34,558 nt of DNA, from the IMG/VR virus record IMGVR_UViG_2585427767_000007, one strand, 5' to 3'. The notes below the pieces were generated by a model. The model ran no database searches, was not told where the DNA came from, and was given only the letters and a program-made list of their open reading frames with translations. Shown piece by piece: positions 982 through 33,655 of this stretch. Origin of the DNA: a virus. Its lineage: Duplodnaviria > Heunggongvirae > Uroviricota > Caudoviricetes > Peduoviridae. The position numbers were made by a program, and so were the translations under genes. Each line of letters begins with the position of its first letter. The first letter of the stretch is position 1.

Positions 982-1050
982 AAGAAAGCCCTCCGGCGCT
1001 GTATTCACCATCTTGGTAGCAAATGGTGAAAATGTAATCTTTATATAGAG

Positions 1051-1753: not shown

Positions 1754-1755
1754 TT

Positions 1756-2423: not shown

Positions 2424-2486
2424 GTAATTAACCAGAGTTTTTAACGCACTTAATTGTGCGGGGCTTCTTTTTGCCTGGAGAAAGTC

Positions 2487-6804: not shown

Positions 6805-7043
6805 TGGCAAAAATTCACGAGGTAAAGCTGCACGCAAAATATTTCGACCTTGTGCTGGAAGGAAAGAAACGTGCGGAGTTTCGGAAAAATGACCGTAATT
6901 ATGAGTACGGAGACACGTTGATTTTGCATGAATGGGTTCAGGATGTGTATACGGGGCGAAAGGTTGAAGCCCGGATAACGGATGTTACGGACCTGTCAGA
7001 CTGGCTGGAGGATTATGTTTTGTTAAGTATTCAAGTGTGTTGA
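6801..7043 (+). CDS. Small ASCH/DUF3850-like protein (80 aa)
   Basis: ATG 6801 overlaps the gpA stop, with GGAG 5 nt upstream. Sequence (KIHEVKLHAKYFDLVLEGKKRAEFRKNDRNYEYGDTLILHEW) resembles the small beta-barrel ASCH-like family often found after gpA; family assignment is from memory. Confidence 0.55.
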   Translation: MMAKIHEVKLHAKYFDLVLEGKKRAEFRKNDRNYEYGDTLILHEWVQDVYTGRKVEARITDVTDLSDWLEDYVLLSIQVC

Positions 7044-7329
7044 AAATGTATGCGGTATGTATGGAAAACCGCACCATAACGAGAAAAATATCCAGTATGA
7101 ATCTGCTTAGATTAATAGATCGCAGAAGAGAGAAGAGGTATTGAGCCATGATGCCAATTTGTGAGATACCGAAGTGTTATGACAAAGATGCTTTTAATGT
7201 TACATTCCGTCATTACTCTTATTAATCATCTATTTCAATAGATTAGGATTAATCTGGCTATGTCATTGAAGATGCTCGATGTCTCGATATTTCTTAGCTA
7301 AAATAGGAGGCACTAAGGGAGAGGATGTT

Positions 7330-8388
7330 ATGTCTAAAATTTATGCTATTGACCTTTTTTGTGGTGCAGGTGGATTAACCCATGGTTTGATACAAGCAGG
7401 GATTGGTGTCATTGCTGGTATTGATTTAGATCCAGATTGCAGATGGGCGTATGAGCACAACAACAAAGCTAAATATATAAATTCAGATATTTGTGATGTA
7501 ACAGGTCAAGACCTTATGCGCTTGTGGCCAGAACAGGGAATAAGACTTCTTGCTGGTTGCGCCCCATGTCAGCCTTTTTCAAGTTATCGAAAAGGCAAGA
7601 TTGAATCTGCTGACGGCAAATGGAAACTCTTAGGTGAATTTGGACGGCTAGTCAAAGAATCTTCACCAGACTTGATAACCATGGAAAACGTACCAAGGTT
7701 ACAAAAGCATAAAATTTTCTTGGATTTTGTTAAAGACCTTAAGAAAGGTGGGTATAAGGTCTGGTATGGCGTCGTTGACTGTCAACAATATGGTGTGCCT
7801 CAGAAAAGGCAGCGATTAGTTTTACTGGCATCCAAGATCAGTGATGTTGTGTTGATTCCTCCAACACATTCAGAAGATAACTACGTAACAGTGAAAGATG
7901 CTATTTCTCATTTGCCAGAGATAGATTCAGGGCAAGCTGATGAGAAAGATCCATTACACGTTGCTCAGGGAATGAGCCAATTAAATCTCGAAAGGATTCG
8001 TCAATCAAAACCAGGTGGAACATGGAAGGATTGGGATCCTGAGTTGGTTGCTGCGTGCCATAAGAAAAGTAGTGGCAAAACTTACACAAGTGTATATGGA
8101 CGGATGAGATGGGATGAACCAGCTCCTACAATGACAACCCTATGTTTTGGTTTTGGTAATGGACGTTTTGGGCATCCTCAACAGGATAGGGCCATTTCTT
8201 TACGTGAGGCAGCTATCTTTCAAAGTTTTCCGGAGAACTATGTTTTTTCTGAACCAGGTGCAAAGATCACATTTGCAACAGTTGGTCGCTTGATTGGTAA
8301 TGCCGTTCCGGTAAAACTAGGTGAAGTTGTAGGAAAATCATTTATTAATAGTCTATCTGGGGGTAGTAGGAGAAATGGCGGAGCATAG
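7330..8388 (+). CDS. DNA (cytosine-5)-methyltransferase, Dcm-type
   Basis: Canonical C5-MTase motifs in canonical order: motif I FCGAGG (IDLFCGAGGLTHGL), motif IV PCQPFS (catalytic Cys), motif VI ENV, motif VIII QKRQR, motif X GNAV. ATG 7330 with GGGAGAGG Shine-Dalgarno; the track start at 7279 is a longer upstream extension. Lower GC than the phage backbone. Confidence 0.9.
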   Translation: MSKIYAIDLFCGAGGLTHGLIQAGIGVIAGIDLDPDCRWAYEHNNKAKYINSDICDVTGQDLMRLWPEQGIRLLAGCAPCQPFSSYRKGKIESADGKWKLLGEFGRLVKESSPDLITMENVPRLQKHKIFLDFVKDLKKGGYKVWYGVVDCQQYGVPQKRQRLVLLASKISDVVLIPPTHSEDNYVTVKDAISHLPEIDSGQADEKDPLHVAQGMSQLNLERIRQSKPGGTWKDWDPELVAACHKKSSGKTYTSVYGRMRWDEPAPTMTTLCFGFGNGRFGHPQQDRAISLREAAIFQSFPENYVFSEPGAKITFATVGRLIGNAVPVKLGEVVGKSFINSLSGGSRRNGGA

Positions 8389-10372
8389 CGAAGTTTTATC
8401 GCATGTTGATGAAAAAACACATACTTATGAGATGCTGGTTAGCTTGAGTGTTCTGGGGCATCTGGGGATCAATCTATATAGCAATGTTGCGGCAGTGATT
8501 ACGGAAACAGTAGCTAATGCATGGGATGCAGATGCTACAGAAGTGCATATAAAACTTTCTCCTGACAGAATCACTATTTCGGATAATGGTTTTGGAATGA
8601 CCATTCATGATATGAATTCGAAATATCTAACAGTTGGCTATCAAAAAAGAAATGATAAAAGCCAGCTATTAACTCCCAAGGGACGACTACCCATGGGCAG
8701 AAAAGGTATTGGTAAGTTATCTTTATTTTCTATTGCAAAAACTGTAACGGTTGAATCAATCAAGGATGGAGAACGACATGGTTTAGTTATGGAAGTTCCA
8801 AAAATAGAGCATGCAATCAAAAGTGGGGCTGGTAGATATTATCCAGAACCTTTGGATTCTGCTCAACTTTCTGTGAGTCAAGGAACATTAGTAACATTGC
8901 GTGATCTAAATCGATCTCGCATACCTGCCACTGCAACCGCTTTGCGTAAAAAGTTAGCAAGGCGTTTTTCTGTTATTGGTAGTAATGATTTTAGGGTCTT
9001 CGTTGATGGTGTAGAAGTAACAGCAAAGGAACGTGAGGACCTAAAACATGTTCAGTTCGTATGGGATATTAACTCGGGGGTAGATTTTAAAAAAGAATGT
9101 CCGGGGTTAATAACTGTAACTGACATTTCATCATTTTTGACAGAAAGTCAATTATTTAATCCTGAATGGAGCATTAAAGGGTGGATTGGTAGTATAAAAC
9201 AGCCTAGTCAGTTGAATACACCTGAAGGAAATCTAAATAGCATTGTTGTTTTATCTAGAGGTCGATTGTTTCAAGAGAACATTTTAGATGATATAAACGA
9301 TGGTGGGATATACACAAAGTATCTTACAGGGCAACTTGAGGCAGACTTCCTTGATACAGATGAAGATGAAGATATTGCAACAAGTGATAGACAACGAGTT
9401 GTTGAAGATGACCCTCGTTATCAATATTTGAAATCATTGGTTAAGATTGCCCTGAGAAAGGTTGCTGGTCAATGGAGCTCACTACGAGAAAAGCAAGGAG
9501 CAAAGGAAGCTAAAGAATCGAATCCGGTACTTGCGGAGTGGATCGGTTCATTAAAACCTGCTTCCCGAGGCTATGCAGAAAAAATGATCGCTCAAATTGA
9601 ATCGTTGCCTTTGGAGGATAAACCACAAGAGAAGAAGGAACTCTTTAAGCATGCAATTTTTGCATTTGAGCGCTTGCGTATTAAGGAAATGTCGCAGGAG
9701 CTAGCTGATGCTGTATTTTTTAATGCAGAAAAATTATTGCCATTGCTTGAGAAACAAGACGATTTAGAGGCAACATTATATTATGAGATAGCTAAGAGTC
9801 GTGTAGATGTTATTCAAAGCTTCAAAGGCCTAGTCGATAACGATGAAAAAGAAAAAGTATTGCAACGTTATCTTTTTGAACACCTTTGGTTATTAGACCC
9901 ATCATGGGAAAGAATTGATGGTTCTCCAATAATGGAGTCGCGTGTTAACCAAGAGTGGGACAAGATTGATGCTGGCCTGAGTGAAGAAGAGAAGAAAGGT
10001 CGTATGGATATAAAATATCGCTCATCTGCAGGTAAGCATATTATCATTGAACTTAAGAGAGCTAGCGTATTGACTTCTGTTGCAAATCTAGTCAGTCAGG
10101 GGAATAAGTACAGGCAGGCAGTAATTAAGTGTGCAAAAGCTGTTGACCCGGCCTCAACACCATCAATTGATGTGATTTTTGTCCTTGGTCGAGAGCCATC
10201 AGATTATGCGTTAGACCCATCTTATACTAACCTTCAGCTACAGTCAGTGAATGGTCGGATTGTTTATTATGATGGGCTAATTAATAGCGCACAGAGCTCG
10301 TATAGAGAATATACAGAGAGGCAGGCTACTGTTGCAAGGATTGCTGAAATCGTTAAAAAACTAGATGACTAG
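8375..10372 (+). CDS. GHKL/HATPase_c-type ATPase (665 aa) with C-terminal PD-(D/E)xK-like nuclease motif; candidate restriction/defence effector
   Basis: Bergerat-fold motifs near the N-terminus: N-box ETVANAWDA (ExxxNAxDA), G1 box DNGFGM, G2 box GRKGIGKLS. C-terminal region has D...ExK pattern (GRMDIKY...HIIIELKR). ATG 8375 overlaps the MTase stop by 14 nt with AGGAG upstream. Low GC. Confidence 0.8.
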   Translation: MAEHSEVLSHVDEKTHTYEMLVSLSVLGHLGINLYSNVAAVITETVANAWDADATEVHIKLSPDRITISDNGFGMTIHDMNSKYLTVGYQKRNDKSQLLTPKGRLPMGRKGIGKLSLFSIAKTVTVESIKDGERHGLVMEVPKIEHAIKSGAGRYYPEPLDSAQLSVSQGTLVTLRDLNRSRIPATATALRKKLARRFSVIGSNDFRVFVDGVEVTAKEREDLKHVQFVWDINSGVDFKKECPGLITVTDISSFLTESQLFNPEWSIKGWIGSIKQPSQLNTPEGNLNSIVVLSRGRLFQENILDDINDGGIYTKYLTGQLEADFLDTDEDEDIATSDRQRVVEDDPRYQYLKSLVKIALRKVAGQWSSLREKQGAKEAKESNPVLAEWIGSLKPASRGYAEKMIAQIESLPLEDKPQEKKELFKHAIFAFERLRIKEMSQELADAVFFNAEKLLPLLEKQDDLEATLYYEIAKSRVDVIQSFKGLVDNDEKEKVLQRYLFEHLWLLDPSWERIDGSPIMESRVNQEWDKIDAGLSEEEKKGRMDIKYRSSAGKHIIIELKRASVLTSVANLVSQGNKYRQAVIKCAKAVDPASTPSIDVIFVLGREPSDYALDPSYTNLQLQSVNGRIVYYDGLINSAQSSYREYTERQATVARIAEIVKKLDD

Positions 10373-10513: not shown

Positions 10514-10532
10514 GGCGAGGCGGGGAAAGCAC
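10514..10532. other. Candidate cos site (19-nt cohesive-end sequence of P2-type phages)
   Basis: GGCGAGGCGGGGAAAGCAC matches my recollection of the P2 cohesive end, and lies where cos is expected in a P2 prophage (between the old/tin-position cargo and the 3' end of Q). Confidence 0.55.
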
Positions 10533-10674
10533 TGCGCGCTGGCGGGGGTGCTGATTTTATTTTTTCAGCGTCTGAGCGCGTCGTGAAGGCGTTTACTTGG
10601 CCTGCTGGGGCGTTGGTGTGTCTGCGGGATTTTTTGTGCGGTGATGAGCGTGTGAGGGCGTGATGACGGGGTGT

Positions 10675-10696
10675 AAAAAAGCCGCCCGCAGGCGGC
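10675..10696 (-). terminator. Rho-independent terminator of the Q-P operon
   Basis: On the minus strand, GCCGCC-tgcg-GGCGGC hairpin followed by TTTTTT, starting 5 nt after the Q stop codon. Confidence 0.7.
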
Positions 10697-10701
10697 GATG
10701 T

Positions 10702-11736
10702 TCAGCCGTTGTCAGTGTCCAGTGAGTAGTTTTTAAAGCGGATGACCTCCTGACCGAGCCAGCCGTTTATTTCCCGAATCCTGTCCTGTAGCGGGATAAG
10801 TTCATTGCGGACAAAGACCTTTGCCACTTTCTCAATATCACCCAGAGACCCGACGTTCTCCGGCTTGCCGCCCATCAACTGAAAGGGGATGCGGTGTGCG
10901 TCCAGCAGGTCAGCGGCGCTGGCTTTTTTGATATTAAAAAAATCGTCCTTCGTCGCCACTTCACTGAGCGGGATAATTTTAATGCCGTCGGCTTTCCCCT
11001 GTGGGGCATAGAGAAACAGGTTTTTAAAGTTATTGCGGCCTTTCGACTTCACCATGTTTTCGCGAAGCATTTCGATATCGTTGCGGTCCTGCACGGCATC
11101 GGTGACGTACATGATGTATCCGGCATGCGCGCCGTTTTCGTAATACTTGCGGCGGAACAGCGTGGCCGACTCATTCAGCCAGGCAGAGTTAAGGGCGCTG
11201 AGATATTCCGGCAGGCCGTACAGCTCCTGATTAATATCCGGCTCCAGCAGGTGAAACACGGAACCGGGCGCGAAAGGTGTCGGCTCGTTGAAGGACGGCA
11301 CCCACCAGTAAACATCCTCCTCCACGCCACGGCGGGGATATTTTGCCGGGGAGGTTTCCAGTCTGATGATCTTACCGGTGGTGCTGTAACGCTTTTCCAG
11401 AAACGCATTACCGAACACCAGAAAATCCAGCACAAAGCGGCTGAAATCCTGTTGCGAAAGCCACGGATGCGGGATAAATGTCGAGGCCAGAATATTGCGT
11501 TTAACGTAAATCGGTGAGCTGTGATGCACGGCAGCACGCAGGCTTTTCGCCAGACCGGTAAAGCTGACCGGCGGCTCATACCATCTGCCGTTACTGATGC
11601 ACTCGACGTAATCCAGAATGTCACGGCGGTCGAGTACCGGCACCGGCTCACCAAAGGTGAATGCCTCCATTTTCGGGGCGCTGGCGGTCATTTTTTTTGC
11701 CGCAGGTTGCGGTGTTTTCCCTTTTTTCTTGCTCAT
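10702..11736 (-). CDS. Q: Portal protein gpQ
   Basis: 344-aa minus-strand ORF at the canonical position next to cos; matches remembered P2 gpQ size. Start ATG overlaps the terminase stop by 1 nt. Confidence 0.9.
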   Translation of the reverse strand: MSKKKGKTPQPAAKKMTASAPKMEAFTFGEPVPVLDRRDILDYVECISNGRWYEPPVSFTGLAKSLRAAVHHSSPIYVKRNILASTFIPHPWLSQQDFSRFVLDFLVFGNAFLEKRYSTTGKIIRLETSPAKYPRRGVEEDVYWWVPSFNEPTPFAPGSVFHLLEPDINQELYGLPEYLSALNSAWLNESATLFRRKYYENGAHAGYIMYVTDAVQDRNDIEMLRENMVKSKGRNNFKNLFLYAPQGKADGIKIIPLSEVATKDDFFNIKKASAADLLDAHRIPFQLMGGKPENVGSLGDIEKVAKVFVRNELIPLQDRIREINGWLGQEVIRFKNYSLDTDNG

Positions 11737-13508
11737 CAGTAAAACTCCAGAATGGTGGATGTCAGCGGGGTGCTGATACCGGCGGTGAGTGGCTCATTTA
11801 ACAGGGCGTGCATGGTCGCCCAGGCGAGGTCGGCGTGGCTGGCTTCCTCGCTGCGGCTGGCCTCATAAGTGGCGCTGCGTCCGCTGCTGGTCATGGTCTT
11901 GCGGATAGCCATAAACGAGCTGGTGATGTCGGTGGCGCTGACGTCATATTCCAGACAGCCACGGCGGATGACGTCTTTTGCCTTGAGCACCATTGCGGTT
12001 TTCATTTCCGGCGTGTAGCGGATATCGCGCGCGGCGGGATAGAACGAGCGCACGAGCTGGAACACGCCGACACCGAGGCCGGTGGCATCAATACCGATGT
12101 ATTCGACGTTGTATTTTTCGGTGAGTTTGCGGATGGATTCCGCCTGAGTGGCAAAGTCCATGCCTTTCCACTGGTGACGCTCAAGTATTCTGAATTTGCC
12201 ACCGGCCACCACCGGCGGTGCCAGTACCACGCATCCGGCGCTGTCGCCACGGTGTGACGGGTCGTAACCAATCCAGACCGGGCGGGAGCCGAACGGATTG
12301 GCGGCAAACGGCGCATAGTCTTCCCATTCTTCCAGCGTGTCGACCATGCAGCGTTGCAGCTCCTCGAACGGGAACACCGACGCCTTGTCGTCAACAAATT
12401 CACACATGAACAGGTTTTTAAAATCGTCGGCGCTGTTTTCGCGTTTGAGCTGTTCAATGTCGAACAGCGTGCAGCCACCTTTCAGGGCGTCCTCAATGGT
12501 GACAATCTGCCGCCACTGGCCGTCCGCACAGAGAAGCCCACCGGCAAGGGCGTTATGACTGACGTCGATTTCCACGCGTTCGGCGGCGCTGGCGCGTCCC
12601 CGGTTGAACAGTTCACCTGACCAGAACGGGTAGGCGTCGTGCGCCAGCGTGGACGGGGTGGAGAAATAGGTCGAGCGCAGGTGACTCTGTGAGGCCATAC
12701 CTGATGCCACCTTACGCAGTACCTGAAAATTCGGGATCCAGAAAATCTCGTCGACGTACAGGTCGCCGTTATGGCTCTGTGCGGTGTTGGAGTTGGTGCC
12801 GAGAAAAATCAGTTTTGCGCCGTTATTGCCCAGGACAATCGGGTCACCGGTCAGGTCAACGTCAACCAGCCGGGCAAAGGCGATGATGTATTCGCGGAAC
12901 ACATACGCCTGCGTTTTACTGGCCGACAGAAAAATCTGGTTATGGCCGGTTTTCAGGGCGCGCAGCAGCGCCTCGCGGGAAAAATAAAACGTCGCGCCAA
13001 TCTGGCGGGATTTCAGGATATCGCGGATGCGGTGCTCAAGCCCGGCGCGATACCAGTGCAACTGATAGTCGAAAGACTGCTCAAAGAAAATCTGCTCCAG
13101 CTTTTCGATGGCCTCGTCACTGAAAAAATTTTTTTTCGGTTTGCGCCGCCCGCCTTTGTTGCGGTTAGCGACGTTCGGATTAAGGTCTGCCTCGTTGCCG
13201 GTCTGGCTGTAACGATTTACCCGTGCCAGTCGTTCAATCTGGCGTCCCAGCAGGTCAATTTCCTTGAAGTCACCGCCGGTTTTCTGCGGTTTGATGATGA
13301 GCTGGGTCAGCCGCGCTTCCAGGCTCATTTCGACACGGCTGATGGGGGCAACATTGTCCCAGCCGTCGCGCTGTTTCCAGCTCTGCACTGTCGGGCGTTT
13401 CATCTGCAACATGGCGGCAATCTGCGGCACGGAAAATCCCTGCCAGTACAGCAGCGCCGCCTGACGACGCGGGTCGTGTAAAAGAGTGGTGTCTGTGGTG
13501 ATGGTCAT
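11736..13508 (-). CDS. P: Terminase large (ATPase) subunit gpP
   Basis: Minus-strand ORF. The track start at 13538 is a TTG; the in-frame ATG at 13506-13508 (MTITTDTTLL...) gives 590 aa, matching remembered P2 gpP size. Confidence 0.9.
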   Translation of the reverse strand: MTITTDTTLLHDPRRQAALLYWQGFSVPQIAAMLQMKRPTVQSWKQRDGWDNVAPISRVEMSLEARLTQLIIKPQKTGGDFKEIDLLGRQIERLARVNRYSQTGNEADLNPNVANRNKGGRRKPKKNFFSDEAIEKLEQIFFEQSFDYQLHWYRAGLEHRIRDILKSRQIGATFYFSREALLRALKTGHNQIFLSASKTQAYVFREYIIAFARLVDVDLTGDPIVLGNNGAKLIFLGTNSNTAQSHNGDLYVDEIFWIPNFQVLRKVASGMASQSHLRSTYFSTPSTLAHDAYPFWSGELFNRGRASAAERVEIDVSHNALAGGLLCADGQWRQIVTIEDALKGGCTLFDIEQLKRENSADDFKNLFMCEFVDDKASVFPFEELQRCMVDTLEEWEDYAPFAANPFGSRPVWIGYDPSHRGDSAGCVVLAPPVVAGGKFRILERHQWKGMDFATQAESIRKLTEKYNVEYIGIDATGLGVGVFQLVRSFYPAARDIRYTPEMKTAMVLKAKDVIRRGCLEYDVSATDITSSFMAIRKTMTSSGRSATYEASRSEEASHADLAWATMHALLNEPLTAGISTPLTSTILEFY

Positions 13509-13681
13509 GAATACCTCGCCGTGATGAATACACGGCAAGGCTACTGAGTCGCGCCCTGCGATTCGCTAAGGTGCTGTTGTGTCAGTGATAAGCCATCCGG
13601 GACTGATGGCGGAGGATGCGCATCGTCGGGAAACTGATGCCGACATGTGACTCCTCTAATCACTATTCAGGACTCCTGACA
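13509..13681. promoter_or_regulatory. Divergent intergenic region between P (leftward) and O (rightward); expected location of Ogr-dependent late promoters
   Basis: In P2 this interval carries the divergent late promoters PP and PO. Here it contains a 5-bp inverted repeat TCAGT-N15-ACTGA (about 13581-13605). I could not find a clean TGT-N12-ACA dyad. Confidence 0.4.
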
Positions 13682-14536
13682 ATGGCAAAAAAAGTCTCAA
13701 AATTCTTTCGTATCGGCGTTGAGGGTGACACCTGTGACGGGCGTGTCATCAGTGCGCAGGATATTCAGGAAATGGCTGAAACCTTTGACCCGCGTGTCTA
13801 CGGTTGCCGCATTAACCTGGAACATCTGCGCGGCATCCTGCCTGACGGTATTTTTAAACGTTATGGCGATGTGGCCGAACTTAAGGCCGAAAAGATTGAC
13901 GATGATTCGGCGCTGAAAGGCAAATGGGCGCTGTTTGCGAAAATCACCCCGACCGATGACCTTATCGCGATGAACAAGGCCGCGCAGAAGGTCTACACCT
14001 CAATGGAAATTCAGCCGAACTTTGCCAACACCGGCAAATGTTATCTGGTGGGTCTGGCCGTCACCGATGACCCGGCAAGCCTCGGCACGGAATACCTGGA
14101 ATTCTGCCGCACGGCAAAACACAACCCCCTGAACCGCTTCAAATTAAGCCCTGAAAACCTGATTTCAGTGGCAACGCCTGTTGAGCTGGAATTTGAAGAC
14201 CTGCCTGAAACAGTGTTCACCGCCCTGACCGAAAAGGTGAAGTCCATTTTTGGCCGCAAACAGGCCAGCGATGATGCCCGTCTGAATGACGTGCATGAAG
14301 CGGTGACCGCTGTTGCTGAACATGTGCAGGAAAAACTGAGCGCCACTGAGCAGCGCCTCGCTGAGATGGAAACCGCCTTTTCCGCACTTAAGCAGGAGGT
14401 GACTGACAGGGCGGATGAAACCAGCCAGGCATTCACCCGCCTGAAAAACAGCCTCGACCACACCGAAAGTCTGACCCAGCAGCGCCGCAGCAAGGCCACC
14501 GGCGGTGGCGGTGACGCCCTGATGACGAACTGCTGA
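13682..14536 (+). CDS. O: Capsid scaffolding protein gpO
   Basis: In-frame ATG at 13682 (MAKKVSKFF...) gives 284 aa, the remembered P2 gpO size; the track ORF starts further upstream at 13616. Coiled-coil-rich C-terminus. Confidence 0.85.
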   Translation: MAKKVSKFFRIGVEGDTCDGRVISAQDIQEMAETFDPRVYGCRINLEHLRGILPDGIFKRYGDVAELKAEKIDDDSALKGKWALFAKITPTDDLIAMNKAAQKVYTSMEIQPNFANTGKCYLVGLAVTDDPASLGTEYLEFCRTAKHNPLNRFKLSPENLISVATPVELEFEDLPETVFTALTEKVKSIFGRKQASDDARLNDVHEAVTAVAEHVQEKLSATEQRLAEMETAFSALKQEVTDRADETSQAFTRLKNSLDHTESLTQQRRSKATGGGGDALMTNC

Positions 14537-14594
14537 CCGGCGTCAGTCAGTCCGGGAAAACCTTCACGATTAACCCTTAATTTCAGGAAAAACT

Positions 14595-15668
14595 ATGCGC
14601 CAGGAAACCCGCTTTAAATTTAATGCCTATCTGTCCCGTGTTGCCGAACTGAACGGCATCGACGCCGGTGATGTGTCGAAAAAATTCACCGTTGAACCGT
14701 CGGTCACCCAGACCCTGATGAACACCATGCAGGAGTCCTCTGATTTTCTGACCCGCATCAACATTGTGCCGGTCAGCGAAATGAAAGGGGAAAAAATTGG
14801 TATTGGTGTCACCGGCTCCATCGCCAGCACCACCGACACCGCCGGTGGCACCGAGCGTCAGCCGAAGGACTTCTCGAAGCTGGCGTCAAACAAGTACGAA
14901 TGCGACCAGATTAACTTCGATTTTTATATCCGCTACAAAACGCTGGACCTGTGGGCGCGTTATCAGGATTTCCAGCTCCGTGTCCGTAACGCCATTATCA
15001 AGCGTCAGTCCCTTGATTTCATCATGGCCGGTTTTAACGGCGTGAAGCGTGCCGAAAACTCTGACCGCAGCAGTAATCCGATGCTGCAGGATGTGGCGGT
15101 CGGCTGGCTGCAGAAATACCGCAATGAAGCCCCGGCGCGCGTGATGAGCAAGGTCACTGACGAGGAAGGTCACACGACCTCTGAGGTCATCCGCGTGGGT
15201 AAGGGCGGTGATTATGCCAGCCTTGATGCACTGGTGATGGATGCGACCAACAACCTGATTGAACCGTGGTATCAGGAAGACCCTGACCTTGTGGTGATTG
15301 TGGGGCGTCAGCTACTGGCGGACAAGTATTTCCCCATCGTTAACAAGGAGCAGGACAACAGCGAAATGCTGGCCGCTGACGTCATCATCAGCCAGAAACG
15401 CATCGGTAACCTGCCGGCGGTACGCGTCCCGTACTTCCCGGCGGATGCGATGCTCATCACGAAGCTGGAAAACCTGTCCATCTACTACATGGATGACAGC
15501 CATCGCCGCGTGATTGTGGAAAACCCGAAACTCGACCGCGTGGAGAACTACGAGTCAATGAACATTGATTACGTGGTGGAAGACTACGCCGCCGGTTGTC
15601 TGGTGGAAAAAATTAAGGTCGGTGATTTCTCCACACCGGCTAAGGCGACCGCAGAGCCGGGAGCGTAA
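14595..15668 (+). CDS. N: Major capsid protein gpN
   Basis: 357-aa ORF directly after O; size and position match P2 gpN. Confidence 0.9.
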   Translation: MRQETRFKFNAYLSRVAELNGIDAGDVSKKFTVEPSVTQTLMNTMQESSDFLTRINIVPVSEMKGEKIGIGVTGSIASTTDTAGGTERQPKDFSKLASNKYECDQINFDFYIRYKTLDLWARYQDFQLRVRNAIIKRQSLDFIMAGFNGVKRAENSDRSSNPMLQDVAVGWLQKYRNEAPARVMSKVTDEEGHTTSEVIRVGKGGDYASLDALVMDATNNLIEPWYQEDPDLVVIVGRQLLADKYFPIVNKEQDNSEMLAADVIISQKRIGNLPAVRVPYFPADAMLITKLENLSIYYMDDSHRRVIVENPKLDRVENYESMNIDYVVEDYAAGCLVEKIKVGDFSTPAKATAEPGA

Positions 15669-15671
15669 CCG

Positions 15672-16415
15672 ATGACGAGTCCCGCACAGCGCCACATGAT
15701 GCGGGTCTCGGCAGCGATGACCGCGCAGCGGGAAGCCGCCCCGCTGCGACATGCAACTGTCTATGAGCAGATGCTGGTCAAGCTGGCCGCAGACCAGCGC
15801 ACACTGAAAGCGATTTATTCAAAAGAGCTGAAGGCCGCGAAAAAGCGCGAACTGCTGCCGTTCTGGTTGCCGTGGGTGAACGGCGTGCTGGAGCAGGGCA
15901 AAGGCGCACAGGATGACATTCTGATGACGGTCATGCTGTGGCGTCTGGATACCGGCGATATTGCCGGTGCGCTGGAGATTGCCCGTTATGCCCTGAAATA
16001 CGGTCTGACCATGCCGGGTAAACACCGCCGCACCCCGCCGTATATGTTCACCGAGGAGGTCGCGCTCGCGGCCATGCGCGCCCACGCGGCCGGTGAGTCT
16101 GTGGATACCCGCCTGCTGACGGAGACCCTTGAACTGACTGCCGCTGCTGACATGCCTGATGAAGTGCGCGCAAAGCTGCACAAAATCACCGGTCTGTTAC
16201 TGCGTGACGGCGGTGATGCCGCAGGTGCGCTGGCGCACCTGCAACGTGCGACACAGCTCGACTGTCAGGCAGGCGTCAAAAAAGAGATTGAACGACTGGA
16301 GCGGGAGCTGAAACCGAAGCCGGAGCCGCAGCCCAAAGCGGCCACCCGCGCCCCGCGTAAGACCCGGAGTGTGACACCGGCAAAACGTGGACGCCCGAAA
16401 AAGAAAGCCAGTTAA
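15672..16415 (+). CDS. M: Terminase small/endonuclease subunit gpM
   Basis: 247-aa ORF with basic C-terminal tail (KRGRPKKKAS); size and position match P2 gpM. Confidence 0.85.
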   Translation: MTSPAQRHMMRVSAAMTAQREAAPLRHATVYEQMLVKLAADQRTLKAIYSKELKAAKKRELLPFWLPWVNGVLEQGKGAQDDILMTVMLWRLDTGDIAGALEIARYALKYGLTMPGKHRRTPPYMFTEEVALAAMRAHAAGESVDTRLLTETLELTAAADMPDEVRAKLHKITGLLLRDGGDAAGALAHLQRATQLDCQAGVKKEIERLERELKPKPEPQPKAATRAPRKTRSVTPAKRGRPKKKAS

Positions 16416-16514
16416 CAACCGAATGCGCCCCGCGCCAGGGCGGCACGCCGGTCAGTGAGGGTGAATCACCTGACACTGCACCGGCGTCCACCGCCCGACT
16501 TTTCAGAGGTAGTC

Positions 16515-17024
16515 ATGATGACGCTGATTATTCCGCGAAAGGAGGCTCCTGTATCCGGTGAGGGTACGGTGGTCATCCCGCAACCGGCAGACGACGAGCC
16601 GGTGATTAAAAACACGTTCTTTTTTCCCGATATCGACCCGAAGCGCGTCCGGGAACGTATGCGCCTTGAGCAGACCGTCGCCCCCGCCCGTCTGCGTGAG
16701 GCCATCAAGTCAGGCATGGCGGAGACGAATGCGGAGCTGTACGAGTACCGTGAACAGAAAATTGCCGCCGGTTTTACGCGTCTGGCGGACGTCCCTGCGG
16801 ACGACATCGACGGTGAAAGCATCAAAGTTTTTTACTACGAGCGCGCCGTGTGTGCGATGGCGACCGCGTCGCTTTATGAGCGTTACCGCGGCGTGGATGC
16901 CAGTGCGAAAGGCGACAAGAAGGCCGACAGCATTGACAGCACCATTGATGAGCTGTGGCGGGATATGCGCTGGGCGGTGGCGCGTATCCAGGACAAGCCG
17001 CGCTGCATCGTGAGTCAAATCTGA
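16515..17024 (+). CDS. L: Head completion/stabilisation protein gpL
   Basis: ATG 16515 with AGAGG Shine-Dalgarno gives 169 aa, matching P2 gpL; the track start at 16455 is an upstream extension. Confidence 0.85.
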   Translation: MMTLIIPRKEAPVSGEGTVVIPQPADDEPVIKNTFFFPDIDPKRVRERMRLEQTVAPARLREAIKSGMAETNAELYEYREQKIAAGFTRLADVPADDIDGESIKVFYYERAVCAMATASLYERYRGVDASAKGDKKADSIDSTIDELWRDMRWAVARIQDKPRCIVSQI

Positions 17025-17227
17025 TGAAGACCTTTGCGCTACAGGGCGACACGCTCGACGCCATTTGTGTCCGCTATTACGGGCGCACTGAGGGCGTGGT
17101 CGAGGCCGTGCTCGCCGCAAATCCGGGACTGGCTGAACTGGGGGCGGTGCTGCCACACGGCACCGCCGTCGAACTGCCCGACGTTCAGACCGCGCCCGTG
17201 GCTGAAACTGTCAATCTGTGGGAGTAA
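17024..17227 (+). CDS. X: Tail protein gpX (small, LysM-like)
   Basis: ATG 17024 overlaps the L stop; 67 aa, matching P2 gpX. The track ORF starting at 16955 is an upstream extension. Confidence 0.8.
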   Translation: MKTFALQGDTLDAICVRYYGRTEGVVEAVLAANPGLAELGAVLPHGTAVELPDVQTAPVAETVNLWE

Positions 17228-17230
17228 CGC

Positions 17231-17512
17231 ATGACAGCAGAAGAAAAAAGCGTCCTGTCGCTTTTCATGATTGGGGTGCTGATTGTTGTCGGCAAGGTGC
17301 TTGCCGGTGGTGAACCCATCACCCCGCGTCTGTTTATCGGGCGCATGTTGCTCGGTGGTTTTGTCTCGATGGTTGCCGGTGTTGTTCTGGTGCAGTTTCC
17401 TGACCTGTCACTGCCTGCGGTGTGCGGCATCGGCTCCATGCTGGGTATCGCCGGTTATCAGGTGATTGAGATTGCCATTCAGCGCCGCTTTAAGGGCAGG
17501 GGGAAACCGTAA
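17231..17512 (+). CDS. Y: Holin gpY
   Basis: 93 aa with hydrophobic transmembrane segments and a charged C-terminus (RRFKGRGKP); GGAG Shine-Dalgarno. Size equals P2 gpY. Confidence 0.8.
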   Translation: MTAEEKSVLSLFMIGVLIVVGKVLAGGEPITPRLFIGRMLLGGFVSMVAGVVLVQFPDLSLPAVCGIGSMLGIAGYQVIEIAIQRRFKGRGKP

Positions 17513-18009
17513 TGCCGGTAATTAACACGCATCAGAATATCGCGGCCTTTCTCGACATGCTGGCCGTGTCCGAAGGGACGGCGAATCATCCGCTGACGAA
17601 AAACCGGGGCTATGACGTGATAGTCACCGGACTGGACGGGAAGCCGGAAATTTTCACCGACTACAGTGACCACCCGTTCGCGCATGGCCGACCGGCGAAG
17701 GTGTTTAACCGTCGCGGTGAAAAATCCACGGCCTCCGGTCGCTATCAGCAGCTTTACCTGTTCTGGCCGCATTACCGCAAACAGCTTGCCCTGCCGGATT
17801 TCAGTCCGTTGTCACAGGACAGACTTGCCATTCAGTTGATCCGCGAACGCGGTGCACTGGATGACGTCCGGGCGGGACGTATTGAGCGCGCCATTTCACG
17901 CTGTCGCAATATCTGGGCGTCCCTGCCGGGTGCCGGTTACGGTCAGCGTGAGCATTCACTGGAAAAACTGGTCACCGTCTGGCGTACCGCTGGCGGCGTA
18001 CCGGCTTAA
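17512..18009 (+). CDS. K: Endolysin gpK (lysozyme-like)
   Basis: 165 aa, start overlapping the holin stop; size and position match P2 gpK. Confidence 0.85.
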   Translation: MPVINTHQNIAAFLDMLAVSEGTANHPLTKNRGYDVIVTGLDGKPEIFTDYSDHPFAHGRPAKVFNRRGEKSTASGRYQQLYLFWPHYRKQLALPDFSPLSQDRLAIQLIRERGALDDVRAGRIERAISRCRNIWASLPGAGYGQREHSLEKLVTVWRTAGGVPA

Positions 18010-18023
18010 ACGGAGTAAACACC

Positions 18024-18449
18024 ATGAAGAAATTATCCCTTTCACTGATGCTGAACGTGTCGCTGGCGCTGATGCTGGCACTGTCCCTGATTTACCCGCA
18101 GAGCGTGGCCGTCAGTTTTGTCGCCACCTGGGCGATTCTGGCGACGGTTATCTGTGTGGTTGCCGGTGGTGTCGGTGTGTATGCCACTGAGTATGTGCTG
18201 GAACGCTACGGGCGGGAGCTGCCGCCGGAATCGCTGGCCGTGAAGATTGTCACGTCGCTGTTTTTGCAGCCGGTAACGTGGTGCCGACGGGCTGTGGGTC
18301 TGGTGGTGATGGTGGCGACGTTTATCTCGCTGGTCGCTGCCGGGTGGATTTTTACCGCGCTGATTTATCTCGTGGCGTCGCTGTTCTTCCGGCTGATACG
18401 TACGGCCTGTCGTCAGCGTCTTGAGGAGCGGGAACTATGTCAAAGCTGA
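18024..18449 (+). CDS. lysA: Lysis regulator LysA (membrane protein)
   Basis: 141 aa with multiple hydrophobic helices; size and position match P2 LysA. Confidence 0.7.
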   Translation: MKKLSLSLMLNVSLALMLALSLIYPQSVAVSFVATWAILATVICVVAGGVGVYATEYVLERYGRELPPESLAVKIVTSLFLQPVTWCRRAVGLVVMVATFISLVAAGWIFTALIYLVASLFFRLIRTACRQRLEERELCQS

Positions 18450-18862
18450 TGATTGTGCTGGTCGTGTTGTTATCGCTGGCGGTGGCCGGTCTGTTTCTGG
18501 TGAAGCATGAAAACGCCAGCCTGCGGGCCTCGCTGGACAGGGTGAACAACGTCGCCAGTGAACAGCAGACGACCATCACTATGCTGAAAAATCAGCTTCA
18601 TGTTGCCCTCACCAGGGCAGACAAAAACGAGCTGGCGCAGGTGGCACTGCGTCAGGAACTGGAGAACGCCGCGAAGCGTGAAGCACAGCGCGAGAAAACC
18701 ATCACGAGGTTACTTAATGAAAACGAAGATTTTCGCCGCTGGTACGGTGCTGACCTGCCTGATGCTGTGCGCCGGTTGCACCAGCGCCCGGCCTGCACCG
18801 ACGCCAGTGATTGTCCACAACGCCTGCCCGAAAGTGAGTCTTTGCCCGATGCCGGGCAGTGA
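18437..18862 (+). CDS. lysB: LysB, Rz-like inner-membrane spanin
   Basis: 141 aa with N-terminal transmembrane helix followed by coiled-coil-like, charged periplasmic region; GAGGAG Shine-Dalgarno. Confidence 0.75.
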   Translation: MSKLMIVLVVLLSLAVAGLFLVKHENASLRASLDRVNNVASEQQTTITMLKNQLHVALTRADKNELAQVALRQELENAAKREAQREKTITRLLNENEDFRRWYGADLPDAVRRLHQRPACTDASDCPQRLPESESLPDAGQ

Positions 18863-19007
18863 CCCGGAGACGAACGGCGATTTAAGTGCTGATATCCGGC
18901 AGCTTGAGAACGCGCTGGCACGCTGTGCCAGCCAGGTAAAAATGATTAAACACTGTCAGGACGAAAACGATGCTCAAACCCGACAGCCTGCGCAGGGCGC
19001 TGACTGA
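18717..19007 (+). CDS. lysC: LysC, Rz1-like outer-membrane lipoprotein spanin, starting inside lysB in another frame
   Basis: ATG 18717 with GAGG upstream gives 96 aa (P2 LysC size). Signal peptide with Cys-containing lipobox-like segment (LTCLMLCAGCTS). Gene begins within the lysB coding region. Confidence 0.7.
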   Translation: MKTKIFAAGTVLTCLMLCAGCTSARPAPTPVIVHNACPKVSLCPMPGSDPETNGDLSADIRQLENALARCASQVKMIKHCQDENDAQTRQPAQGAD

Positions 19008-19437
19008 CGCCGTCACGGTGCTGAAAACCAGTCCCGAGATGCTGCGGATATTCGTGGATAACGGGAGTATTGCCTCCACACTGGCGACGTCTATGTCATT
19101 CGAAAAGCGTTACACGCTCAATGTGATTGTGACCGACTTTACCGGTGATTTTGACCTGCTCATTGTGCCGGTGCTGGCGTGGCTGCGGGAAAATCAGCCC
19201 GACATCATGACCACCGACGAAGGCCAGAAAAAGGGCTTCACGTTTTATGCAGACATCAACAATGACAGCAGCTTTGATATCAGCATCAGCCTGATGCTGA
19301 CCGAGCGCACGCTGGTCAGTGAGGTGGACGGCTCGCTGCATGTGAAGAATATCCCGGAACCTCCGCCGCCGGAGCCGGTCACCCGCCCGATGGAGCTGTA
19401 TATCAATGGCGAACTGGTGAGCAAGTGGGATGAATGA
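18970..19437 (+). CDS. R: Tail completion protein gpR
   Basis: 155 aa; size and position match P2 gpR. Confidence 0.8.
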   Translation: MLKPDSLRRALTDAVTVLKTSPEMLRIFVDNGSIASTLATSMSFEKRYTLNVIVTDFTGDFDLLIVPVLAWLRENQPDIMTTDEGQKKGFTFYADINNDSSFDISISLMLTERTLVSEVDGSLHVKNIPEPPPPEPVTRPMELYINGELVSKWDE

Positions 19438-19882
19438 GTTTAAGCGTTTTGAAGACCGGCTGACCGGACTTATTGAATCGCTGTCACCGTCAGGGCGTCG
19501 GCGACTGAGTGCCGAACTGGCGAAACGTCTGCGTCAGAGTCAGCAGCGTCGGGTGATGGCACAGAAAGCCCCGGACGGCACACCCTACGCACCACGCCAG
19601 CAGCAGAGCGCCAGAAAAAAGACCGGTCGTGTTAAGCGAAAAATGTTTGCGAAACTTATCACCAGTCGTTTTTTGCATATCCGCGCCAGCCCGGAACAGG
19701 CATCAATGGAATTTTACGGCGGGAAGTCGCCGAAAATCGCCAGTGTGCATCAGTTCGGTCTGTCGGAAGAAACCCGAAAAGACGGTAAGAAAATTGATTA
19801 TCCGGCGCGTCCTCTGCTCGGCTTTACCGGTGAGGATGTGCAGATGATTGAAGAGATTATCCTGTCTCACCTCGACCGTTAG
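19430..19882 (+). CDS. S: Tail completion protein gpS
   Basis: 150 aa, start overlapping the R stop; size and position match P2 gpS. Confidence 0.8.
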   Translation: MNEFKRFEDRLTGLIESLSPSGRRRLSAELAKRLRQSQQRRVMAQKAPDGTPYAPRQQQSARKKTGRVKRKMFAKLITSRFLHIRASPEQASMEFYGGKSPKIASVHQFGLSEETRKDGKKIDYPARPLLGFTGEDVQMIEEIILSHLDR

Positions 19883-19948
19883 TTGTGCCATTCCCGACAC
19901 CTCATCGTCACATTGCCGCCGGTATGACCCGGCGGCATCCTTCCCGTT

Positions 19949-25892: not shown

Positions 25893-26486
25893 ATGTTTAC
25901 TAAGCGACGATTAAAAAATATTAACTGGGAGGCAAGTTCAGTGATTCTTGCTATGGTTCTCTTTGTTGGAAATATATTTTATACAAATCATCGTGATGAT
26001 ATAAGCATGGAGGCTGAGAGGGACAGTATCAGAACAATGTTTGCATATGAAATCGCTAATAACCATCGCGCTCTCACTTTTCTTGATAAAACGAGACATA
26101 TTGGCTTTGACGAAAATTCGGAGCATTTTGTTGGCGAGCCTTTTGCCATTAATGTCAAATCATTAGGGGGGCCTCGCTTACAGATTGCATTAAACCAGAC
26201 TGATAAAGTGTTTAAATCCTACTTCAGCGAATTAAGTAAGCTTGGTAAAGAGGATGTTACTCTTCTTATGGACTATTACCATGAGCAAAGCATCCTGCTG
26301 GAGCGTGTAAAATCTACGTTACAGAAGATGAAAAGTGGTAATGATATTAAAGTTGATATTGATGGTTACTTATTAGAAGAACACTTCATGAATGAGCTTA
26401 ATCTTTCTAATATTTTGCTTAAACGCTATAGCCATTTGTTGTCACAATACGCTAAAGAACATAAAACAAAAGATTTACATAATTGA
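25893..26486 (+). CDS. AT-rich moron at the P2 Z/fun locus: 197-aa hypothetical protein with N-terminal membrane anchor
   Basis: ATG 25893 with AAGG upstream. Single hydrophobic segment SSVILAMVLFVGNIF near the N-terminus. Markedly lower GC than the flanking tail genes; followed by a strong terminator. Confidence 0.65.
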   Translation: MFTKRRLKNINWEASSVILAMVLFVGNIFYTNHRDDISMEAERDSIRTMFAYEIANNHRALTFLDKTRHIGFDENSEHFVGEPFAINVKSLGGPRLQIALNQTDKVFKSYFSELSKLGKEDVTLLMDYYHEQSILLERVKSTLQKMKSGNDIKVDIDGYLLEEHFMNELNLSNILLKRYSHLLSQYAKEHKTKDLHN

Positions 26487-33429: not shown

Positions 33430-33456
33430 AGCCCCTCAGTTGAGGGGCTTTATTTA
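33430..33456 (+). terminator. Rho-independent terminator after ogr
   Basis: AGCCCCTCA-gt-TGAGGGGCT hairpin followed by TTTATTT, 10 nt after the ogr stop. Confidence 0.65.
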
Positions 33457-33612
33457 TGGTCGATGTGGACGCTATGTGGACAGTGGTTGATATAAATCCA
33501 TTTATATCATCAGGTTAGGTGCTTTTTTGTGACACCATCCCTGTCTTCCCCCACATGATGTGGGGTTTTTTTTTATCCTCAATTTGCTTGCTGCTTAATG
33601 CATTGCAGATGA
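33457..33612. other. Putative attR region (phage arm plus core), boundaries not resolved
   Basis: Between ogr and host fieF. Contains direct repeat ATGTGGAC x2 (33462-33469, 33473-33480), palindrome GATATAAAT-cca-ATTTATATC (33489-33509), and hairpin CCCCACAT-gatg-TGGGG followed by T9 (about 33549-33575). attL is not in the window, so the core cannot be confirmed. Confidence 0.4.
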
Positions 33613-33655
33613 TTTGCTTCCGTTATACTACCGTCAGTTGATAGCGGGAGTATTT

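What the first reader, a model, noticed from the sequence alone, without database searches (positions are those of the whole stretch)
18437..19007. Overlapping lysB/lysC (Rz/Rz1-like) spanin genes
The lipoprotein gene lysC starts at 18717 inside lysB in a different frame and extends past its stop (18862) to 19007, where it overlaps the start of R (18970). The two products would form the inner- and outer-membrane spanin pair. The overlap constrains both sequences and is easily missed by single-frame gene callers.
Basis: partly seen in the sequence, partly recalled or inferred. Interest (0 to 1): 0.35.

Follow-up and report, generated by a model that had tools for sequence, protein, structure and literature searches.

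The report
P2-type overlapping lysB/lysC spanin genes
This is the textbook pair of overlapping phage P2 lysis genes (lysB and lysC), which build the protein bridge that breaks the bacterial outer membrane at the end of infection, sitting in an ordinary P2-like prophage of E. coli.

Summary
lysB is 18437-18862 (141 aa). lysC is 18717-19007 (96 aa), in the +1 frame. R starts at 18970. The overlaps are 146 nt (lysB/lysC) and 38 nt (lysC/R). The window is a P2-like prophage next to the E. coli gene fieF, and its late region is 97.5% identical to phage P2.

LysB and LysC score far above the curated cut-offs of NCBIfam TIGR03495 (LysB) and NF038368/Pfam PF23793 (LysC). Both are 96% identical to the P2 proteins. 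P2, Wphi and PSP3 annotate the same architecture, and P2 lysB/lysC is the named paradigm of the "overlapped" two-component spanin class.

An open +1 frame across the overlap is not rare in itself: 84% of synonymous shuffles keep it open. The real evidence is:
- lysC is the only lipoprotein-like N-terminus among 428 reading frames in the window.
- The ATG and the 96-codon frame are kept in 77 of 77 distinct relatives, and in phages only about 72% identical.
- The non-overlapping part of lysC shows third-position variation in the lysC frame.
- The overlap has roughly half the divergence of the rest of lysB.

The same stretch occurs in 1604 of 5426 complete E. coli genomes. Verdict: real, correctly interpreted and already known. 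Low interest.

The parts
18437..18862 (+). lysB, the i-spanin (Rz-like), 141 aa
   Evidence: ORF. TIGR03495 at 169 bits against a 92.75 cut-off. PHROG 89 'Rz-like spanin'. 96% aa identity to P2 LysB.
18446..18502 (+). Codons 4-22 of lysB: the single N-terminal transmembrane segment (LMIVLVVLLSLAVAGLFLV), with Lys3 before it
   Evidence: Kyte-Doolittle mean of 3.1 over 19 residues; no other hydrophobic window in the protein. It forms part of the continuous predicted helix 2-104. The N-in/C-out topology is inferred.
18706..18709 (+). GAGG Shine-Dalgarno for lysC, 7 nt before its ATG and inside lysB
   Evidence: GAGG in 72 of 77 relatives and GAGA in 5.
18717..19007 (+). lysC, the o-spanin (Rz1-like outer-membrane lipoprotein precursor), 96 aa, +1 frame relative to lysB
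   Evidence: NF038368 at 128 bits (cut-off 27) and PF23793 at 62 bits (cut-off 27). 96% identity to P2 LysC. Same coordinates as P2 8202-8492, relative to lysB.
18717..18779 (+). lysC signal peptide (residues 1-20, MKTKIFAAGTVLTCLMLCAG) plus the Cys21 codon (18777-18779), the predicted lipidated first residue of the mature 76-aa protein
   Evidence: Cys21 and Gly20 are invariant in all relatives. The mature length of 76 aa agrees with the curated Wphi entry in the supplement of PMC6139136.
18717..18862 (+). 146-nt dual-coding overlap (LysB residues 94-141 / LysC residues 1-48)
   Evidence: fewer variable sites than in the rest of lysB and loss of simple third-position periodicity. The overlap length is identical to Wphi in PMC6139136 supplementary file 5.
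18863..18969 (+). lysC-only segment, encoding the conserved motif NGDLSADIRQLE and the start of a predicted helix
   Evidence: Variation peaks at lysC-frame position 3. N53-R61 are invariant. The helix 56-88 is a low-confidence prediction.
18914..18932 (+). Perfect 8-bp hairpin (GCTGGCAC-GCT-GTGCCAGC) inside lysC, at the position of the 'putative transcription attenuator' annotated in the P2 record
   Evidence: It has no U tract, its variants are all synonymous in lysC, and it is not conserved in more distant relatives. Its function is unsupported here.
18970..19007 (+). 38-nt overlap of the lysC 3' end with the start of tail-completion gene R (R = 18970-19437)
   Evidence: PF06891 matches R from residue 1.
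17231..18449 (+). Upstream lysis genes of the same cassette: Y holin (17231-17512), K endolysin (17512-18009), lysA (18024-18449)
   Evidence: PF04550 for the holin. PHROG 90 endolysin and NF038378 for lysA. Same order as in P2 and Wphi.

Best explanation
lysB and lysC are the two subunits of a P2-type two-component spanin, carried by a P2-like prophage of E. coli. LysB is anchored in the inner membrane by one N-terminal transmembrane helix and extends a long helical, coiled-coil-prone rod into the periplasm. LysC is translated from its own ribosome-binding site inside lysB, in the +1 frame. It is exported, cleaved before Cys21 and lipidated there, then sorted to the outer membrane because residue +2 is Thr, not Asp. 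Its proline-rich linker and C-terminal helical part meet the conserved C-terminal part of LysB. That part of LysB is encoded by the same DNA as the LysC signal peptide and linker. The complex spans the periplasm through the cell wall. After holin Y and endolysin K have destroyed the wall, the complex removes the outer membrane, by fusing inner and outer membranes in the lambda Rz/Rz1 model.

Shown here: the gene anatomy, family membership, targeting signals, conservation and the dual-coding signature. Inferred from the family and from lambda: complex formation, disulfide-linked dimers, membrane fusion and the lysis role.
For: - Coordinates and frames.
- Curated family models, well above cut-off. 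PHROG spanin families.
- 97.5% DNA identity to P2 across the late region and 96% protein identity to P2 LysB and LysC.
- Identical annotated architecture in P2, Wphi and PSP3.
- The only lipoprotein-like N-terminus in the window.
- Transmembrane segment, Thr at +2, 7 of 8 prolines in the first 30 mature residues, and periplasmic cysteines (LysB C120, C126; LysC C37, C43, C70, C80). The four LysC cysteines are invariant.
- LysB predicted as one helix 2-104 with pLDDT about 90, and one heptad register with 16 of 23 hydrophobic a/d positions.
- ORF and start codon kept in 77 of 77 relatives and in relatives about 72% identical.
- Codon-position and divergence statistics.
- Literature: P2 LysB/LysC is the paradigm overlapped spanin, and the fusion model rests on lambda Rz/Rz1 (PMC6139136). 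The P2 lysC start lies in the +1 frame in lysB and its stop lies in R (PMC3091744). P2 lysC missense alleles have a lysis phenotype (PMC3556154).
Against: - Nothing contradicts the explanation, but no expression or function was measured for this prophage.
- The lipobox is C-A-G-C, so position -3 is Cys rather than the consensus L/V/I (consensus quoted in PMC6139136). This is also the state in P2 itself and is conserved. No dedicated lipoprotein predictor was available.
- The LysC structure prediction is of low confidence (pLDDT 51).
- No solved structure of any relative exists.
- Membrane fusion has been shown experimentally only for lambda Rz/Rz1, which shares no detectable sequence similarity with this pair.
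Confidence: 0.95

Rival explanations
1. lysC is real but starts further downstream. One candidate is ATG 18762, giving the 81-aa product that NCBI's PGAP annotates in E. coli genomes. The other is ATG 18849, giving the 52-aa product annotated in several phage records. The overlap with lysB would then be 101 nt or only 14 nt.
For: PGAP annotates lysC from the position equal to 18762 in a genome that is 100% identical over this stretch. 52-aa 'o-spanin' entries exist for vB_YpM_50, Midge, EtG and MDG94-186. PHROG 952 models only residues 36-96.
Against: - A product starting at Met16 (MLCAGC...) has no basic n-region and only four residues before the lipobox Cys. One starting at Met45 has no signal at all. 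Neither could reach the outer membrane.
- There is no Shine-Dalgarno before 18762 or 18849, whereas GAGG precedes 18717.
- Residues 1-15 are conserved in distant relatives: M1, K4, A7, G9, L12 and L15 are invariant.
- Met16 is Ile in vB_YpM_50, and the Yersinia enterocolitica phage has Leu at that alignment position.
- NF038368 aligns from residue 4.
- P2, Wphi, PSP3 and the curated spanin table use the 96-aa start.
- 32 of 77 relatives have an in-frame TGA directly before ATG 18717, which also rules out any longer form.
Confidence: 0.03
2. The +1-frame ORF is a by-product of lysB's sequence, and the 107 nt after lysB are non-coding. No LysC protein is made.
For: An open +1 frame across the overlap is expected by chance in 84% of synonymous shuffles of lysB. 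Several public annotations omit lysC.
Against: - Strong hits to curated LysC models.
- A signal peptide and lipobox that are unique in the window.
- Start and length kept in 77 of 77 relatives and across about 28% DNA divergence.
- lysC-frame third-position periodicity where only lysC codes.
- P2 lysC missense alleles have phenotypes (PMC3556154).
Confidence: 0.01
3. LysB and LysC are regulators of lysis timing, as in the older P2 annotation ('nonessential; affects timing of lysis'), possibly acting on the holin, rather than outer-membrane disruptors.
For: The notes in the P2 record say so. PMC3556154 reports that lysC alleles are the only non-holin, non-antiholin alleles with early-lysis phenotypes and suggests possible functional interaction with the holin.
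Against: The membrane topology signals, one inner-membrane and one outer-membrane subunit, are those of a periplasm-spanning complex. The field has reclassified the pair as the paradigm overlapped spanin (PMC6139136). A delayed-lysis phenotype in ordinary shaken culture is what spanin mutants show (established knowledge for lambda Rz/Rz1). The two views are not exclusive.
Confidence: 0.05

Closest known systems
Phage P2 LysB/LysC (NC_001895: lysB 7922-8347, lysC 8202-8492), and the same pair in Wphi, L-413C, fiAA91-ss and many E. coli prophages
   Same: Same genes: 96% amino-acid identity for both proteins. Same lengths (141 and 96 aa). Same +1 frame, 146-nt overlap with lysB and 38-nt overlap with R. 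Same neighbours Y-K-lysA ... R-S. Same LCAGC lipobox. Same hairpin at the annotated 'attenuator'.
   Different: Only allelic differences. For example, LysC has K2 where P2 has R2, R25 where P2 has P25, H34 where P2 has P34, and E52 where P2 has Q52, with a few changes in LysB. Downstream of S the window lacks P2 orf30, as does Wphi.
PSP3 / Eganvirus-type LysB/LysC (PSP3, Midge, EtG, vB_YpM_MDG94-186) and Klebsiella or Yersinia enterocolitica P2-like phages
   Same: Homologous pair with the same overlapped +1 architecture, a 96-104-aa LysC, invariant Cys21 and four further cysteines, and the NGDLSADIR motif.
   Different: LysC identity is 72-74% (50% for the Y. enterocolitica phage) and LysB identity is 58-61% (35%). 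The lipobox is LCVGC or canonical LSGC. Some lack lysA or have a different endolysin. Several records annotate lysC truncated or not at all.
Lambda Rz/Rz1 (embedded two-component spanin)
   Same: Same logic: a type II inner-membrane protein with a helical periplasmic domain, plus a small proline-rich outer-membrane lipoprotein encoded in the +1 frame of the same DNA. It is the last step of lysis after holin and endolysin (PMC6139136).
   Different: No detectable sequence similarity: no Rz or Rz1 Pfam hit. Rz1 lies entirely inside Rz, whereas lysC runs 145 nt past lysB into R. Mature Rz1 is 40 aa, with 10 prolines and no predicted structure. Mature LysC is 76 aa, with 8 prolines and a predicted C-terminal helix.
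T4 PseT.3/PseT.2 (separated spanin) and T1 gp11 (unimolecular spanin)
   Same: Same function class: a link between inner and outer membrane that disrupts the outer membrane (PMC6139136).
   Different: Their genes do not overlap, or the function is carried by a single protein. Sequences are unrelated and the periplasmic domains are richer in beta structure.

Membership tests
P2 LysB/LysC overlapped two-component spanin | The i-spanin sequence matches the LysB family model above its curated cut-off | tested here: met
   TIGR03495 phage_LysB (equivalog): 169.3 bits against a 92.75 cut-off, covering residues 7-140 of 141. PHROG 89 at E=4e-60.
P2 LysB/LysC overlapped two-component spanin | The o-spanin sequence matches the LysC family models above their curated cut-offs | tested here: met
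   NF038368 P2_Rz1 (equivalog): 128.3 bits against 27. Pfam PF23793 LysC: 62.4 bits against 27.
P2 LysB/LysC overlapped two-component spanin | The o-spanin gene starts inside the i-spanin gene in the +1 frame and extends beyond its stop ('overlapped', not 'embedded') | tested here: met
   lysC 18717-19007 against lysB 18437-18862: frame offset 1, overlap 146 nt, and 145 nt beyond the lysB stop. The overlap equals that listed for Wphi in the PMC6139136 supplement.
P2 LysB/LysC overlapped two-component spanin | The i-spanin has a single N-terminal transmembrane segment and a mainly helical, coiled-coil-prone periplasmic domain | tested here: met
   There is one hydrophobic window, residues 4-22, with mean KD 3.1. 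The AF2 single-sequence model has a helix at 2-104 with pLDDT about 83-94. One heptad register gives 16 of 23 hydrophobic a/d positions. These are predictions only; the topology was not measured.
P2 LysB/LysC overlapped two-component spanin | The o-spanin has a signal peptidase II signal: basic n-region, hydrophobic core, small residues at -1 and -2, Cys at +1, and no Asp at +2 (outer-membrane sorting) | tested here: met
   MKTK / IFAAGTVLTCLMLC / A-G / C21 / T22. It is the only such N-terminus among 428 frames. G20, C21 and T22 are invariant.
P2 LysB/LysC overlapped two-component spanin | Strict lipobox consensus [LVI][ASTVI][GAS]C | tested here: not met
   Position -3 is Cys18 (C-A-G-C). P2, Wphi and PSP3 have the same residue and Midge has C-V-G-C, so this deviation belongs to the family and is no bar to membership. 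The Y. enterocolitica relative has the canonical L-S-G-C. PMC6139136 documents functional non-consensus lipoboxes in spanins.
P2 LysB/LysC overlapped two-component spanin | Located in the lysis cassette next to holin and endolysin | tested here: met
   Y holin (PF04550) at 17231-17512, K endolysin (PHROG 90) at 17512-18009 and lysA at 18024-18449 lie immediately upstream. The order is the same as in P2.
P2 LysB/LysC overlapped two-component spanin | Periplasmic cysteines available for intermolecular disulfide bonds | tested here: met
   LysB has C120 and C126. Mature LysC has C37, C43, C70 and C80, all four invariant in the alignment. The bonds themselves are not testable here.
P2 LysB/LysC overlapped two-component spanin | The two subunits form a complex and are needed for outer-membrane disruption (complementing lambda Rz/Rz1 amber mutants) | not testable with these tools
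   This needs genetics and biochemistry. Mutations silent in LysB that would test it are listed.
Lambda Rz/Rz1 embedded spanin (sequence family) | Sequence similarity to the Rz and Rz1 families, with the o-spanin gene entirely embedded in the i-spanin gene | tested here: not met
   The Pfam scan gave no Rz or Rz1 family hit for either protein. lysC extends 145 nt past lysB. The pair is a functional analogue of Rz/Rz1, not a member of that family.

The most novel reading that the evidence does not exclude
Natural allelic variation in the proline-rich linker of LysC may tune lysis timing or envelope-stress sensitivity among E. coli P2-like prophages. Residue 25 is Arg here and in 59 of 78 relatives, Pro in P2 and Gln in two; residue 28 is P, Q or L. 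This is the region where P2 missense alleles in the first two prolines are reported to cause early lysis. Separately, the 8-bp hairpin in the lysC-only segment (18914-18932) could be a genuine attenuator that sets the dose of the downstream tail-completion genes R and S. Neither idea is excluded, and neither is supported beyond the coincidence of position.
Probability: 0.08. Interest if true: 0.3.

Novelty: already known. Interest (0 to 1): 0.07.

Why it matters
It matters only as a good annotation. The pair completes the lysis cassette of this prophage, and it is a clean example of dual-coding DNA in which both reading frames are under selection. The one practical point is that public annotation of this exact, very common stretch is still inconsistent. 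It appears as 96 aa, 81 aa, 52 aa or absent, and only the 96-aa form has the export and lipidation signal. Pipelines that take the shorter forms will mis-predict localisation.

Tried and rejected
- **Openness of the +1 frame as evidence.** Rejected: 84% of synonymous shuffles of lysB are open over the overlap.
- **A longer LysC using the open frame upstream (18588-18716; the 135-aa ORF).** Rejected: 32 of 77 relatives carry an in-frame TGA directly before ATG 18717, and Wphi's frame opens only at the ATG.
- **Downstream starts at 18762 and 18849.** Rejected: they have no signal peptide and no Shine-Dalgarno, and Met16 is not conserved.
- **The hairpin 18914-18932 as a conserved RNA element.** It is a perfect 8-bp stem, but the 71-nt context folds no better than shuffles (z=-0.97). 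It has no U tract and was not picked up by the terminator scan. All its variants are lysC-synonymous, and it is absent or shifted in distant relatives.
- **Searches that found nothing.** Rfam and tRNA scans of the whole window gave no hits. PDB sequence searches found no relative with a solved structure.
- **A paper not held.** Markov et al. 2004 (J Bacteriol 186:4628), the primary paper on lysC, is not in the library. Its content is cited only through PMC3091744 and PMC3556154.
- **Searches deliberately not run.** I did not run the very large protein-database searches, because curated family models and more than 80 related loci already settled the question.
- **LysC structure prediction.** Single-sequence AF2 of LysC gave a low-confidence model (pLDDT 51), so no fold search was attempted.

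Full report
**What the window is.** The window is a P2-like prophage in integrated gene order. A diverged integrase lies at the left end, followed by the early genes. A cos-equivalent point lies near 10514, and the late genes follow. Window 10514-19884 aligns with P2 coordinates 1-9369 at 97.5% identity. The last ~1.1 kb (33450-34558) is the E. coli chromosomal gene fieF, which is present in all 5426 complete E. coli genomes searched. The finding lies in the late O operon.

**Check of the observation.** The sequence and ORF list and a direct computation give these coordinates:
- lysB: ATG 18437 to TGA 18862, 141 aa.
- lysC: ATG 18717 to TGA 19007, 96 aa.
- R: ATG 18970 to 19437.

lysC is in the +1 frame relative to lysB, and R is +1 relative to lysC. 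The overlaps are 146 nt (lysB/lysC), 38 nt (lysC/R) and 13 nt (lysA/lysB). GAGG lies 7 nt before the lysC ATG. Every coordinate in the finding is right.

**Is it more than chance?** An open alternative frame is weak evidence here. When LysB's codons are shuffled synonymously, the +1 frame stays open across the overlap in 84% of 20,000 trials. Four other lines of evidence carry the argument.
- Among 428 ATG-started frames of at least 40 aa in all six frames of the window, only lysC has a lipoprotein-type N-terminus: MKTK, a hydrophobic core, and A-G-C21 followed by Thr.
- In 77 distinct close relatives (80 IMG/VR loci plus P2, Wphi and vB_YpM_50), the ATG and the 96-codon length are kept in 77 of 77. 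The lysB stop is not: TGA in 71, CGA in 5 and TGG in 1, giving 147- or 156-aa LysB. Both changes are silent in LysC.
- Phages about 72% identical in DNA (PSP3, Midge, EtG, vB_YpM_MDG94-186 and a Klebsiella phage) and a Yersinia enterocolitica phage at 67% keep a 96-104-aa +1-frame ORF. It has the same signal, Cys21 and four further invariant cysteines.
- In 18863-18969, where only lysC codes, variable sites concentrate at lysC codon position 3. Within the clade the counts are 13/36 against 10/71 (p=0.013). Against PSP3 they are 18/36 against 14/71 (p=0.002). Pooled they are 28/36 against 24/71 (p=3e-5).

In the overlap, simple periodicity is lost and divergence is roughly halved compared with the rest of lysB: 33/143 against 99/250 versus PSP3 (p=9e-4). 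That is the expected signature of two frames under selection. Within the close clade, changes in the overlap are more often silent in LysB and replacing in LysC (16) than the reverse (8), with 5 replacing in both. This fits the tolerance of a signal peptide core and a linker.

**What it is.**
- LysB matches the NCBIfam equivalog TIGR03495 'Rz-like lysis system protein LysB' (169 bits, cut-off 92.75).
- LysC matches NF038368 'P2_Rz1' (128 bits, cut-off 27) and Pfam PF23793 'LysC' (62 bits, cut-off 27).
- PHROGs place both proteins in 'Rz-like spanin' families.
- Both proteins are 96% identical to those of phage P2.
- The P2 reference record annotates lysB at 7922-8347 and lysC at 8202-8492, the same geometry. 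Wphi and PSP3 do the same.
- The neighbours are those of P2: X, holin Y (PF04550), endolysin K and lysA upstream, and R (PF06891), S (PF05069) and V downstream.

**How it most likely works.** LysB has one hydrophobic segment (residues 4-22) with Lys3 before it. The rest is predicted as a single long helix to residue 104 (pLDDT about 90), with one heptad register rich in hydrophobic a/d positions. The C-terminal residues 105-141 are of low confidence. That tail is nevertheless well conserved (RRWY..LPD.VRRLH) and is encoded by the overlap.

LysC has a 20-residue signal peptide. Mature LysC (76 aa) begins at Cys21 and has Thr at +2. Seven of its eight prolines fall in the first 30 residues. It carries the invariant motif NGDLSADIRxLE and a C-terminal segment that is weakly predicted as helical. 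These features fit an inner-membrane subunit and an outer-membrane lipoprotein subunit that meet in the periplasm.

The functional model comes from lambda Rz/Rz1, as summarised in PMC6139136. In that model the complex spans the periplasm, forms disulfide-linked dimers, and fuses the inner and outer membranes once the endolysin has removed the wall. For this locus the model is inferred, not shown.

For P2 itself, PMC3091744 states that the lysC start is in the +1 frame within lysB and its stop is in R, citing Markov et al. 2004. PMC3556154 reports that lysC missense alleles in the first two prolines give early lysis in cells with compromised peptidoglycan. The gene product is therefore known to be made and to matter in P2.

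**Comparison with the known.** PMC6139136 names P2 as the example of the 'overlapped' architecture, which covers 228 of 528 two-component spanins surveyed. Its supplement lists Wphi with coordinates 7922-8348 and 8202-8493, a 146-nt overlap, a 96-aa o-spanin and a 76-aa mature form. These values are identical to those found here.

The stretch 18437-19007 occurs at 95% identity or more in about 1545 complete E. coli genomes. It occurs at some level in 1604 of 5426, and PGAP names the genes lysB and lysC. It also occurs in 124 phage records.

The pair does not belong to the lambda Rz/Rz1 sequence families: there is no Pfam hit, and the architecture is not embedded. It is their functional analogue.

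One defining feature departs from the textbook form. The lipobox is C-A-G-C, with Cys rather than L/V/I at -3. The same deviation is present in P2, Wphi and PSP3, and non-consensus lipoboxes are documented in spanins.

**Start site.** Three annotation variants exist in public records for essentially the same DNA:
- 96 aa in P2, Wphi, PSP3 and PhiR44_1.
- 81 aa from Met16 in PGAP annotation of E. coli.
- 52 aa from Met45 in vB_YpM_50, Midge, EtG and MDG94-186.

In addition, fiAA91-ss, L-413C, S164 and the Y. enterocolitica phages have no lysC annotated. Only the 96-aa form carries a usable signal peptide and a Shine-Dalgarno. An in-frame TGA immediately upstream in 32 of 77 relatives excludes any longer form.

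**Verdict.** The feature is a routine, already described and usually annotated member of the P2 LysB/LysC spanin family. Interest is low. The remaining open points are small: the effect of natural linker alleles, the reality of the annotated 'attenuator' hairpin, and the unsolved structure of P2-type spanins (no relative in the PDB).

Noticed in passing
window 18762 and 18849 (alternative lysC starts); L091:1626-1871; L002:2050-2208; L005:1200-1358: Public records disagree on the lysC start for near-identical DNA. PGAP uses Met16 (81 aa, no n- or h-region). Several phage records use Met45 (52 aa, no signal). Others omit lysC. Only the 96-aa form has a signal peptide and a Shine-Dalgarno.
   Followed up: yes
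window 18860-18862 (lysB stop): In 6 of 77 close relatives the lysB stop is mutated (TGA to CGA or TGG), which lengthens LysB to 147 or 156 aa. Both changes are synonymous in LysC. The extreme C-terminus of LysB therefore seems tolerant, whereas the LysC frame is never broken.
   Followed up: partly
window 18789-18791 (LysC codon 25) and 18798-18800 (codon 28): LysC residue 25 is Arg in the window and in 59 of 78 relatives, Pro in P2 and 17 others, and Gln in 2. Residue 28 is P, Q or L. More distant relatives have Pro-Pro at 25-26. A secondary source says P2 missense alleles in the first two prolines of LysC cause early lysis. The primary paper (Markov 2004) could not be read.
   Followed up: partly
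window 18914-18932: A perfect 8-bp stem with a 3-nt loop lies inside lysC, at the position annotated in the P2 record as 'putative transcription attenuator; O operon'. It has no U tract, its variants are all lysC-synonymous, and it is not conserved in Eganvirus or Klebsiella relatives.
   Followed up: partly
window 7279-10372: In place of P2's tin/old genes the prophage carries a C-5 cytosine DNA methyltransferase (7279-8388, PF00145). Overlapping it is a BbrUII/HgiDII-family restriction enzyme with a GHKL ATPase domain (8375-10372, NF050001 at 785 bits against a 550 cut-off). Together they form a type II restriction-modification cargo in the known variable region of P2-like phages.
   Followed up: partly
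window 3509-4516: An extra 335-aa gene with a PAPS-reductase domain (PF01507, with weak SspD/BrxP/DndC-like hits) is inserted among the early genes just upstream of the gene A homologue (ORF 4513-6804). It is absent from P2 at this position.
   Followed up: partly
window 25893-26486: A 197-aa ORF in the position of P2 fun(Z), between the tail-fibre genes and the F operon, has no Pfam, NCBIfam or PADLOC hit. It may be an uncharacterised cargo gene in a second variable region.
   Followed up: partly
window 18024-18449 (lysA): LysA is labelled 'endolysin' in RefSeq phage records and PHROG 162. The P2 literature treats it as an antiholin-like membrane protein with four predicted transmembrane domains, and NCBIfam only calls it 'DNZ54_00345 family'. 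The 'endolysin' label looks like annotation drift.
   Followed up: no
window 14-995 and 33450-34558: The integrase is only 70-80% identical to P2 int, and the right flank is host fieF. The prophage therefore uses an attachment site different from that of P2's own integrase. No tRNA gene is present in the window.
   Followed up: partly
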